Shown here: piece after piece, positions 29,201 to 32,200 of the stretch
Layout: each line of letters starts with the position of its first letter
Position numbering within the stretch: position 1 is the first letter of the stretch
Assembly (NCBI GenBank): GCA_965216565.1
Contig: OZ244170.1
Coordinates: forward strand, 800,001-864,000
Length of the DNA: 64,000 nt
From: Bythopirellula sp.
Lineage (GTDB): Bacteria; Planctomycetota; Planctomycetia; Pirellulales; Lacipirellulaceae
Direction: 5' to 3'
Program-made: the position numbers

Positions 29201-32200
29201 TGTCGGAAAACAGTTTTTCTGATTTAGCGATCCGAAGATCACTAGCCCCCGGCTCTGCCGGGGGATGAAATATCCTCATACTCAGTACGAATCCCCCGGC
29301 AGAGCCGGGGACTACTCAGTACGAATCCCCCGGCAGAGCCGGGGGCTACGAAAAAAAACCTCTCGGGACACAAGTGTCCCGAGAGGCGTTGTCAACTAAC
29401 AAATCCCGTATAGGGTGTTAACTGATGGCTTAACTGCCGCCCAACTGGCCAGCAACACTTGTGAATGTCGCGTTGGCGTTCGTACCTACGGAACGAATGG
29501 CGGTCAGACATACGATCACAATCAACGCCAACATAACAGCGTATTCGACCGCAGTAGGCCCATCTTCCGAGACGAGGAAACGTTGTACCTTCTGTGCAAA
29601 CTTCTTCATAGCATTCCTCCGATTCTCGGATGTCCACCTCTATGGAGGCGACACCCTATAAGGTTGTCGGGAGATTCACTGAATAGGAATGTCTCCCGGT
29701 TTTCGGCATAGTCACTACACCCTTACCTTACGGGGGGCAGAACCTGCAAATTGCAGCGTCTATACCTAAAAAATTAAACAAGTGATGCGAATCATCTCTT
29801 GAGGGTTGCGTCCGCATCATGCGGAGCGTGTATCCTTTCGGTAGCCTGGCGAACGAGTTGCTCGTCCCATGGCTTTGCGCCCTAGCCTTACGACTAGTTT
29901 GCCCTTTCGAGGATGATTACGCAGCAGGCTCTTCTTGCATGACTGCTCTCACCTAAGACGTCCGTGAGTACCAGAAACTGGTAAGGAGAAGAGAAGTCTT
30001 GCTGGCGACCGCCTGCGGCGCTCACCGGTGTGGCCTTTCGCGACTGCCTGTCGTTTCCGGCTACACTTGAAACCTATGTCAGATCCGACTGATGTCAAAC
30101 TTCTCTGGACCACTCTCGCCACTTTTTCTTCCGGGCGCGTTAGAACCGTTTCAATCTGATTGAATGCCTCGCGAGATAACCCATCTTGGGTCGGAATTGT
30201 GGTGTTTTTGCAACCTACAGTTGTGGAGGTGCAACCCTTATTGACTCAGTTCCACGTCTATCGTTAGGCCACTATGCAACTCCTGCTCGAAAAGCTTGTT
30301 CGCTTGGCACAAGAATCTGCCTGGAATTACCACGCGGGCGGTGCGGTTGCCACAGAACCGGCTGCTTGGGCGTGTCTTGCACTAGCGGAACACGGTGAGC
30401 ATGAGTCAGCAAAGCTGGCAGCAGAGTGGTTGCAGCAAGTCCAAGACAAGAAAGGTTCGGTAGGCGTGACCCCTACGCAGTCCTTACCTGCTTGGACGAC
30501 GAGTTTGGCAATCTTGGCTTGGAGCAGTTGTGACAGCTTGACGGGCGAAGGCCGCTACGAAGCATCTCTCGCACGTGCGTTGGAATGGACATTGAACGCA
30601 CGCGGCAAAACGGCCGAACGTCAGAGCGAAATCGGGCACGACCCAACCCTGGTCGGTTGGTCCTGGGCCGAGGGCACCCATTCCTGGCTCGAGCCAACAA
30701 CCCTGTTCGTCATGGCGCTAAAGGCCGCAGGCTATGCCAATCATCCCCGCACCCGCGAGGCAGTGCGGCTAATCGTCGATCGGTTGCTACCCGATGGCGG
30801 CTGCAACTACGGCAACACAATGGTTCTTGGTCAAACTCTCTTGCCTCACGTCCAACCGACGGGGTTCGCCATGTTGGCATTGGCCGGCGAAAGGAGCAAC
30901 GATCCCAGGGTCGCTAAATCGCTCGACTTTCTAGAAGATTCGCTGCAATCCGATTCATCGACGGCCTCCCAATGTTATGCCGTATTGGGCTTGAATGCAC
31001 ACGGCCGCGACACTTCCCAGACAGAGGAATGGCTCGCAGCGGCCGCCCAGCGAGAAACGAGTTGCTATCGCTTAGCGCTCATTGCCTTGGCTCGGAAGAA
31101 CTCTCAGAGATGGCTATCTCCGAAGCGAGCTGTGGAGGTTGCCGGCTTATGAGTTGTCCGAAAAAACAATCGGGTTGGAAACCTTCGCGCCGAACTGTAT
31201 TGGCTGCTGGGGGAGCAACTGTCGCGGGTCTCGCCGGCACTAAGTTAGCCACTTGGGCAGCTGACCGTCGACGGGCGAACGTTTTTATTGCGAAGAACCA
31301 GAAATACGACGGAGCGCTGATCGCAACGATTCGCGATGGCTTACTGGCATGCGATCTCAAGCCGGAGCACTTTCGCGGCAAGCGTGTCTTGCTGAAGCCA
31401 AATCTCGTTGAGCCAACTCGTGAAATTCCACATATGACGACTCACCCATTGGTGATTAGTGCTGCCGGCGAAGTGTTTCAACAATGGGGCGCTACGGTTC
31501 GAGTTGGCGAGGCCCCGGGGCATGTTCGCGATACCGAAATGGCGCTCATTGAATCGGGTGTTGGCGAAGCACTCAGGGACGCGGATCTTTCTTTCGCCGA
31601 CTTGAATTACGAGGAAGTCGCCTGGCATCGAAATCGTGGCCGTGTTAGCCCACTAAAAGGGATTTACTTCCCACGATCCGTGGTGGAAGCCGACTGGGTG
31701 GTTTCGTTGCCCAAGATGAAGACCCATCACTGGGTGGGACTAACCTGCAGTATGAAGAATTTCTACGGCGTATTGCCGGGAATCAAATACGGTTGGCCCA
31801 AGAACGTGCTCCATCACAATGGAATCCCGCAAACGGTTGTCGATATCAATGCCACTTTGCCCAGCACTCTGGCGATTGTCGACGGTATCGATTGTATGGA
31901 GGGCGACGGTCCCATCCTGGGAAGTCTCAAGCAGATGGGCCTCATCGCAGTAGGGCGAAGCTTACCCGCAGTGGACGCCACGATTGCACGGATCATGGCG
32001 CTCGAACCGAGTCGGGTGAGTTACCTCGCACTCGCGGCAGGCAAGCTTGGTCCCATCGACGAGCATCTGATCGACCAACGCGGCGAACCCTGGCAACCGC
32101 TGACCTCGGCATTCAAAATCCTCGACAAACCCCACCTTCGGCAATTGAGAGCAACCCCCGATGGGCCGCTGGTGACATAACGATTCTCTTTAGTGACAAT

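What a model noticed while it worked through the whole genome (the two positions that open the first line are those of the whole stretch)
29430..29913. c-di-GMP-I riboswitch in front of the Flp pilin gene across Pirellulales
The genome's only c-di-GMP-I riboswitch heads the flp pilin-prepilin peptidase-cpaB-secretin operon (g00675-g00670), and this pairing is the rule in the order: Tad pilus production is put directly under c-di-GMP at the RNA level.
Evidence so far: Rfam RF01051 over cut-off in 21 of 25 near-complete Pirellulales; of 20 loci read, 17 (16 of 19 others) have flp directly downstream and 2 more adjoin a Tad gene.
(Added by a program. Inside this text positions count along the whole contig: contig position 800,001 is position 1 of the stretch shown here. 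"Call 12" and the like, gene names such as g00115 and contig names such as C1 are that model's own, and its searches are not shown. The text may have been shortened before it was handed on; [...] marks where a part breaks off. The agent that wrote the report below was given it as the finding of a first reader that could run no searches.)

Follow-up and report, generated by a model that had tools for sequence, protein, structure and literature searches.

The report
c-di-GMP switch inside pseudoknotted pilin leader
A well-known cyclic-di-GMP-sensing RNA really does sit in front of the main pilus-subunit gene in most pilin-bearing Pirellulales, and it is plugged into a larger, conserved and apparently uncatalogued knotted RNA fold that persists even where the sensor has been lost.

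Summary
Confirmed, with corrections. A canonical c-di-GMP-I aptamer (RF01051, 67 bits; G20/A47/C92) lies 227 nt before flp. In 151 near-complete genomes of the order, 99 carry it. 107 of all 140 hits precede flp and 14 more precede TadG/E-type genes; 92 of 133 flp-bearing genomes have the pairing. It is the majority state, not universal. The pairing was in print as one supplement row in 2007 (Blastopirellula marina), and this scan noted it before on another planctomycete (e1-5277910). A strong terminator follows flp, so control probably falls on the pilin mRNA, not the whole operon.

New here: the aptamer sits in a conserved ~450-nt leader with a covarying long-range pseudoknot, a distal strand that invades P1 in ligand-free folds, an AU-rich linker and a conserved downstream stem domain. 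No other Rfam family matches. About nine main Tad loci in five families lost the aptamer but kept this scaffold in its ligand-free form. Modelled ribosome-site access does not change between states. ON/OFF direction is unresolved, near even. Ligand binding is untested.

The parts
30071..30098 (-). Conserved sigma70-like promoter: -35 TTGACA (30098-30093), 16-nt spacer, -10 TAGGTT (30076-30071); predicted start about 30064
   Evidence: TTTGAC in 86 of 95 upstream regions; this spacing in 74 of 75 loci with a promoter match; function inferred
29935..30064 (-). 5' hairpin-rich segment of the leader (domain 0, mostly 110-150 nt in relatives)
   Evidence: Folds better than shuffles (z<-2 in 64 of 75); no cognate pairing with the ribosome site or downstream parts
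29924..29932 (-). S0: 5' strand of the long-range pseudoknot (consensus GGCCUGC)
   Evidence: 97.9% of cells paired, compensatory changes at 3 of 6 pairs
29908..29923 (-). Sa plus P1 5' strand: the switching strand, paired either in P1 or with the distal invading strand
29836..29913 (-). c-di-GMP-I aptamer (G20=29903, A47=29876, C92=29841; GUAA tetraloop; P1 3' strand runs to about 29832)
   Evidence: positions read; contact residues from PMC4744006
29808..29827 (-). Variable hairpin P4 between the aptamer and the invading strand
   Evidence: (fold prediction)
29786..29798 (-). Distal P1-invading strand (consensus CGAGG..GAGGC); pairs Sa and the P1 5' strand in ligand-free folds
   Evidence: Cognate duplex -17.1 vs swapped -13.9 kcal/mol, better in 69 of 78; takes >=4 nt of the P1 core in 73 of 78
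29768..29785 (-). AU/U-rich single-stranded linker (median 16 nt)
   Evidence: (A+U 0.59 vs 0.40 for the whole leader)
29705..29766 (-). Domain 2: long stem P6 with a bulged loop displaying S0' (29747-29739, consensus GCAGGCC), capped by hairpin P7
   Evidence: -34.4 vs -25.6 shuffled, -27.4 swapped flank; 69.5% paired, 138 two-sided changes vs 58 in shuffles
29616..29698 (-). Two further hairpins and the Shine-Dalgarno GGAGG (29620-29616)
   Evidence: modelled SD access unchanged between states
29430..29609 (-). flp major pilin, 59 aa
   Evidence: Pfam Flp_Fap 36.2 bits, over cut-off
29351..29387 (-). Intrinsic-terminator-like hairpin (13 bp plus U run) after flp
   Evidence: similar in 77 of 107 loci
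29172..29200 (-). Possible second promoter for the small ORF and cpaA
   Evidence: Sequence; -10-like motif before cpaA in 26 of 77 loci vs 1 control; inferred
29005..29115 (-). 36-aa hydrophobic ORF between flp and cpaA, with look-alikes in relatives
   Evidence: no Pfam match
23662..28930 (-). cpaA (28355-28930), cpaB (26931-27965), secretin (24999-26840), CpaE-like (23662-24903)
33071..36659 (+). tadA/cpaF ATPase and tadB, tadC on the opposite strand, outside the riboswitch transcript
   Evidence: T2SSE, T2SSF

Best explanation
A real c-di-GMP-I riboswitch controls a roughly 700-nt leader-plus-flp transcript running from a conserved promoter to a terminator after flp. The switch works by strand exchange. 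The aptamer is transcribed first and can bind c-di-GMP, which locks helix P1. Without ligand, a distal strand invades and takes the P1 5' strand, making a long helix (about 12 bp) that stacks into a larger scaffold: a pseudoknot between S0, 5' of the aptamer, and the loop of a downstream stem domain. The output is not ribosome-site masking at equilibrium. It most likely acts during transcription or on RNA fate (pausing or Rho in the AU-rich linker, or RNase E/G access). Shown here: aptamer identity, gene context, covariation of the scaffold helices, mutual exclusion of P1 and the invading helix in fold models, and scaffold retention after aptamer loss. Inferred: ligand binding, promoter use, output. 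Direction: I lean narrowly to the ligand-free scaffold being the productive form, so that c-di-GMP lowers pilin output (about 45% OFF, 40% ON, 15% neither).
For: Canonical G20/A47/C92 in the window and in 89 of 107 flp-linked hits (7 others could not be parsed). GGDEF proteins in G000: 11 domain matches over cut-off. Extended P1 is 91.5% paired with 4 of 8 pairs covarying, and the pseudoknot 97.9% paired; 0 of 500 shuffles reach this and slid registers give 32-46%. Domain 2. Invading helix is cognate-specific in 69 of 78; P1 is open in 99% of 76 unconstrained folds; median cost of the P1 state 4.9 kcal/mol, within what nanomolar binding could pay (general knowledge). SD access 0.35 vs 0.36 and 0.30-0.33 in four states (38 loci). 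12 of 40 aptamer-negative flp leaders pass a scaffold test vs 18 of 380 shuffles. In 9 of them with a decayed or deleted aptamer the distal helix is fixed (13.0 vs 8.3 expected pairs). flp is intact and heads cpaA-cpaB in 9 of 10 such loci fetched. Seawater RNA-library contigs cover 29393-30037, with single contigs spanning aptamer to flp start (one study, may include DNA). Rho and RNase E/G are present.
Against: No binding or expression data. No output element was identified in either state: >=5 U directly after the invading helix in only 22 of 78, and a stable local hairpin plus U run in only 5 of 78. RNAalifold on the MAFFT alignment of domain 2 predicted no structure. In the flp-anchored sample the scaffold was found in 5 of 29 aptamer-less loci against a 6.6% shuffle rate, a weak excess, and was missed in 10 of 43 aptamer-bearing loci. 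17 of 95 long leaders were left out of the scaffold statistics for poor anchors. Sequences are related, so shuffle counts overstate. Against the OFF lean: known pilin riboswitches are ON, and the pseudopilin-type leaders here lean ON (start region opens in 6 of 11).
Confidence: 0.68

Rival explanations
1. Classical ON switch. Without ligand, the invading helix plus the U-rich linker acts as an atypical terminator or a pause/Rho site. c-di-GMP blocks invasion and allows read-through to flp, as for C. difficile pilA1. Same anatomy as the best explanation, opposite sign.
For: Helix followed by a U-rich tract (>=5 U in the best 8-mer of the linker in 51 of 78; the window has a 6-U run). Precedents pilA1 and pilM are ON. 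Pseudopilin leaders lean ON. 28 of 40 aptamer-negative leaders show no scaffold by my test and many are much shorter, as expected if a repressive platform must be removed.
Against: The U tract starts a median 5 nt after the helix and is often only AU-rich. About nine main Tad loci keep the ligand-free helix without a sensor, in front of an intact flp-cpaA-cpaB; these would be permanently off.
Confidence: 0.38
2. The scaffold is an independent regulatory RNA (protein-binding, second-ligand or RNA-stabilising element), and the c-di-GMP aptamer is an optional module plugged into its first helix, giving two-input control of pilin. Compatible with either direction.
For: The pseudoknot is conserved in sequence as well as pairing. 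The scaffold is retained with compensatory changes after aptamer deletion in families f1, f4, f16, f24, f27. Promoter-to-S0 distance stays near 155-170 nt there. One aptamer-plus-scaffold copy has no flp behind it (G129). G000 encodes 12 CsrA-family matches.
Against: No partner identified. Retention could be recent, neutral decay in some loci (G148 is in the window's own genus). Weak excess in the second sample. Few invariant unpaired bases apart from the pseudoknot strands.
Confidence: 0.3
3. Translational switch: the P1 5' strand or Sa (CCUC) pairs with the flp Shine-Dalgarno in one state.
For: CAUCCUC is complementary to the SD region in several loci.
Against: No change in modelled SD or start-region access in 76 loci or over four states with the full leader. 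Domain 0 shows no cognate pairing to the start region (32 of 75).
Confidence: 0.1
4. The scaffold is a self-cleaving or self-splicing ribozyme (HDV-like or group-I-like strand order) under riboswitch control.
For: The order of paired strands resembles those nested pseudoknots (recalled resemblance).
Against: No Rfam ribozyme or intron match at E<=10 or in 40 other leaders at E<=0.05. The segment where HDV has P3/L3 pairs with the 3' arm instead. The one apparent skip in RNA contigs is best read as a diverged relative: a 516-nt record with unaligned letters between the two sides.
Confidence: 0.04

Closest known systems
c-di-GMP-I (GEMM-I) riboswitch, Rfam RF01051; Vibrio cholerae Vc2/Vc1
   Same: Aptamer fold and the contact bases G20/A47/C92. 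Weinberg 2007 already reports GEMM in Planctomycetes, cpaA among target families, and B. marina RNA->Flp->hypo->CpaA.
   Different: No terminator overlapping the aptamer's 3' side. The competing strand attacks the 5' strand of P1 from 40-150 nt downstream, inside a pseudoknotted scaffold that the Rfam model does not cover.
Clostridioides difficile Cdi-2-4 (c-di-GMP-II) riboswitch before pilA1
   Same: Second-messenger riboswitch before the major pilin, with assembly genes reached only by partial read-through (PMC6366702 passages).
   Different: Class II aptamer, type IV pili of another family, a defined terminator and proven ON logic; here class I, Tad/Flp, output element unknown.
Geobacter metallireducens pilM cGAMP riboswitch and C. 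difficile Cd1
   Same: GEMM-I fold; aptamer and competing folds decided during transcription (PMC9262584 abstract and introduction).
   Different: pilM senses cGAMP and both use canonical terminators; here G20 and no canonical terminator.
c-di-GMP-I-GGC variant, Rfam RF03167
   Same: Scores 62.8 bits against a cut-off of 59 at the same place.
   Different: That model has G at position 47; the window has A, and RF01051 scores higher (67.1).

Membership tests
c-di-GMP-I riboswitch (RF01051) | Covariance-model score above the gathering threshold | tested here: met
   67.1 vs 35 bits, model positions 1-87
c-di-GMP-I riboswitch (RF01051) | Ligand-contact bases G20, A47, C92 | tested here: met
   29903 G, 29876 A, 29841 C (alignment; residue list)
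c-di-GMP-I riboswitch (RF01051) | P2 with GNRA tetraloop, AAA junction, P3, P1 | tested here: met
   GUAA loop and AAA linker; P1 covariation
c-di-GMP-I riboswitch (RF01051) | 5' cis position in the leader of the regulated gene | tested here: met
   Between the conserved promoter and flp, same strand; RNA-library contigs span it (weak)
c-di-GMP-I riboswitch (RF01051) | Expression platform mutually exclusive with the bound aptamer and linked to an output | tested here: inconclusive
   Competing helix found; no terminator or SD output identified
c-di-GMP-I riboswitch (RF01051) | Binds c-di-GMP and changes gene expression | not testable with these tools
   Needs probing and reporter assays
c-di-GMP-I-GGC variant (RF03167) | G at position 47 | tested here: not met
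   A in the window (alignment)
cGAMP-sensing GEMM-I variant | A at position 20 | tested here: not met
   G in the window; A in only 2 flp-linked relatives
Tad/Flp pilus system | Flp pilin, prepilin peptidase, CpaB, secretin, ATPase, TadB/C, TadE/G-type proteins | tested here: met
HDV-like ribozyme / group I intron | Rfam match; P3/L3 and catalytic core motifs | tested here: not met
   core motifs recalled from memory

The most novel reading that the evidence does not exclude
The Pirellulales flp leader is an undescribed regulatory RNA class: a pseudoknotted scaffold with its own function (second input or pilin-mRNA stabiliser) into which a c-di-GMP-I aptamer is inserted as a removable module. 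c-di-GMP would shut pilin off by unzipping the scaffold's first helix, the opposite of known pilin riboswitches and fitting a swimmer-to-sessile life cycle.
Probability: 0.25. Interest if true: 0.78.

Novelty: new variant of a known kind. Interest (0 to 1): 0.52.

Why it matters
It names the dominant RNA-level c-di-GMP target in a widespread planctomycete order: 121 of 140 aptamers point at Tad genes. That gives a ready handle on how these bacteria time surface attachment. The unusual platform, with natural aptamer-less versions as built-in controls, makes direction and mechanism directly testable and may define a new structured RNA. The bare pairing of this riboswitch with pilus genes is expected and was tabulated in 2007.

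Tried and rejected
RNAalifold on the domain-2 MAFFT alignment gave no consensus, and an unbiased column-pair scan was noisy; support comes from per-sequence folds with swap controls and a named-structure count. A first duplex test over the whole downstream leader barely separated cognate from non-cognate pairs (57-58 of 92); only windowed tests did. SD masking was rejected. A canonical terminator in either state was not found. The generic promoter scan found nothing; the promoter came from conservation. A separate -35/-10 promoter before cpaA matched only 5 of 77 with a strict pattern. RNase J was not found in G000 (genome 94% complete), which weakens a 5'-exonuclease-blocking role. RNA contigs gave no cover of cpaA or of the promoter, which proves nothing; runs held only 6-17% of the words. 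The apparent joint 29629->29941 was rejected as splicing. My early note that pseudopilin leaders are clear ON switches was not borne out with two forced pairs and only partly with full P1 (6 of 11). Phylum-wide generality was rejected: 70 of 151 phylum genomes have the aptamer, but in the 30 top loci the visible downstream genes were sigma factors, N-methyl pilin-like or secreted proteins, not flp (output partly cut). Literature searches found no paper on this leader or regulon beyond Weinberg 2007. The library lacks most subscription papers, file 5 of that supplement was not searched and file 1 was cut, and the supplement of PMC5737381 was not searched, so prior description cannot be excluded. 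A sequence look-up in earlier findings returned nothing.

Full report
1. The observation. The window holds one riboswitch, at 29836-29913 on the minus strand. It scores 67.1 bits on RF01051 (cut-off 35) and is the only such hit in the genome. A planctomycete-specific profile and a regex agree, and there is no c-di-GMP-II hit over cut-off. cmscan names it RF03167 by clan overlap, but the contact bases are G20, A47, C92, the Vc2 set (PMC4744006 passages). flp starts 227 nt downstream. cpaA, cpaB, secretin and a CpaE-like gene follow on the same strand; tadA/B/C lie on the other strand. The genome encodes GGDEF proteins (11 domain matches over cut-off).

2. How general. In an even sample of 151 genomes of the order, 99 have the aptamer, giving 140 hits. 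I read all 140. 107 have flp as first gene, 84-341 nt away. 14 precede TadG/TadE-type genes, three of these 350-790 nt away behind a short ORF. 19 precede other or no clear genes. 92 of 99 genomes have a riboswitch-flp pair, 15 have two, and 61 of 65 single-hit genomes use it for flp. flp itself was found in 133 of 151; family f13 has 0 of 15 with flp and 1 of 15 with the aptamer. So 69% of flp-bearing genomes show the pairing; a flp-anchored sample gave 43 of 73. Outside the order, family f103 has riboswitch-flp and f29 has riboswitch-TadG. Other classes mostly place it before a sigma factor or other surface genes. Kin are not independent, so these are descriptions, not tests.

3. Transcript unit. 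A promoter-like TTGAC..N17..TAnnnT element is conserved upstream, predicting a start near 30064 and leaders of 371-605 nt. A strong terminator follows flp, as in 77 of 107 loci. cpaA follows in 77 of 95 long-leader loci and 0 of 12 short-leader loci. A -10-like motif precedes cpaA in 26 of 77 against 1 control. Contigs from four seawater RNA libraries of one study cover 29393-30037, and two single contigs run from the aptamer to the flp start region; contigs cannot show ends and may include DNA. The riboswitch therefore most likely sets pilin supply, with assembly genes reached by read-through or their own promoter.

4. The larger fold. 95 of the 107 flp leaders are long. They share, in order: S0 (GGCCUGC), Sa (GCCUC), an extended P1 5' strand, the aptamer, variable hairpins, a distal strand (CGAGG..GAGGC), an AU-rich linker, and a stem domain whose bulged loop displays GCAGGCC. 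On a sequence-only alignment of 40 leaders (picked from 87 anchored ones, shorter ones preferred), S0 pairs with that loop in 97.9% of cells, with G-C to A-U in 9, U-A to C-G in 2 and C-G to U-A in 1. Extended P1 is 91.5% paired. No shuffle of 500 reached the totals, and slid registers gave 32-46%. Because the loop lies inside the downstream stem, this is a long-range pseudoknot. For 78 leaders (8 failed the anchor filter and 9 more were dropped as doubtful), the stem encloses the loop in 78 of 78 and folds at -34.4 kcal/mol against -25.6 shuffled and -27.4 with another locus's flank. On an unfitted alignment of 46, its named pairs show 138 two-sided changes against 58 expected, though RNAalifold found nothing on that alignment. 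The distal strand pairs better with its own 5' strand than with others in 69 of 78 and takes at least 4 nt of the P1 core in 73 of 78. Without constraints P1 is open in 99% of 76 leaders, at a median cost of 4.9 kcal/mol to restore. Rfam has nothing else here.

5. Natural loss of the sensor. Of 40 flp leaders without an RF01051 hit, none matched any c-di-GMP family at E<=0.05, yet 12 passed a scaffold test against 18 of 380 shuffles. One (G137) still has a diverged aptamer, one (G037) keeps part of it, and G100 is doubtful. In nine decayed or deleted cases the distal helix is fixed in the ligand-free register (13.0 expected pairs against 8.3). flp is intact and heads cpaA-cpaB in 9 of 10 such loci fetched. 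They fall in families f1, f4, f16, f24 and f27, each of which also has aptamer-bearing members. The second sample was weaker: 5 of 29 against 6.6%.

6. Mechanism. Strand exchange at P1 is well supported as a model; the output is not identified. Modelled SD access is the same with and without P1 or the pseudoknot. A canonical terminator is missing in both states. Rho and RNase E/G are present and RNase J was not found. Direction: retention of the ligand-free form in front of intact main pilin genes argues that this form permits expression (OFF switch). Precedent (pilA1, pilM) and the pseudopilin leaders (start region opens in 6 of 11) argue ON. I put these at about 45 and 40%. In Caulobacter, pili belong to the low-c-di-GMP swarmer stage, which would make OFF plausible for a dimorphic planctomycete; that comparison is recalled, not checked.

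7. What is known. Weinberg 2007 (PMC1950547; main-text passages and supplement searches) reports GEMM in Planctomycetes, lists cpaA, and tabulates B. marina RNA->Flp->hypo->CpaA. Eight literature searches (listings only) and term searches in PMC2864571, PMC5737381 and PMC7288161 (passages) showed no account of the order-wide regulon or of the scaffold. Coverage is limited to open-licence papers, and supplements I could not or did not search may bear on this.

8. Verdict. A true riboswitch of a known class in an expected and once-tabulated context, here shown to be the majority arrangement in the order and to sit in an unusual, conserved, pseudoknotted platform that outlives the sensor. New variant of a known kind; interest 0.52.

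Noticed in passing
window 29005-29115 (-): 36-aa hydrophobic ORF between the flp terminator and cpaA. A strict regex found look-alikes in 20 of 95 loci (one of these is a cpaA tail, a false hit). No Pfam match. Probably the 'hypo' of the 2007 table.
   Followed up: partly
L054, L061, L067, L073, L088, L100, L104 (short flp leaders): Second-copy flp genes carry a short leader whose aptamer has U at position 92 (7 G/A/U cases) and an upstream strand that pairs with the SD in fold models. Possible altered ligand specificity.
   Followed up: partly
L115 (G097) and L069 (G103): A at position 20. G097 has A20 plus U92, the combination reported to bind c-di-AMP in an engineered mutant (PMC7288161 passage).
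   Followed up: no
L050, L055, L065, L082, L092, L101 (family f1): A second aptamer in six relatives sits behind a promoter-like motif and heads about 300-400 nt with no shared ORF, a conserved C-rich motif and terminator-like ends, before rpmG-recJ or rplM in four cases. Candidate riboswitch-headed small RNA.
   Followed up: partly
L112 (G129:C628): Aptamer with the full scaffold (compensatory pseudoknot pair) but no flp within 2.5 kb; a DUF386 gene follows.
   Followed up: partly
L006, L051, L078, L079, L103 and others: TadG/TadE-linked aptamers have a compact platform in which the P1 3' strand overlaps a hairpin covering the SD/start region; leans translational ON.
   Followed up: partly
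L190, L197, L199, L179 and similar phylum loci: In several non-Pirellulales families the single aptamer precedes a FliA/WhiG-like sigma factor (the family label is my reading of the Pfam domains).
   Followed up: partly
family f54 genomes (G176, G218, G280): At least 27 RF01051 matches per genome, the scoring ceiling.
   Followed up: no
window 29246-29345: Three copies of a GC-rich palindromic repeat after the flp terminator; the 17-mer occurs 5 times in the genome.
   Followed up: partly
window 42321-42500 (-): Second flp paralogue (51% identical) with no riboswitch, downstream of a HesB/IscA-like gene (label from reading the sequence, not tested).
   Followed up: partly
G000 genome-wide: 12 CsrA-family matches and a second, weaker Rho RNA-binding-domain match.
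   Followed up: no
L213, L218, L222, L223, L225 (family f99): Aptamers with the same P1 5' strand but a different competing strand and no common downstream gene.
   Followed up: no
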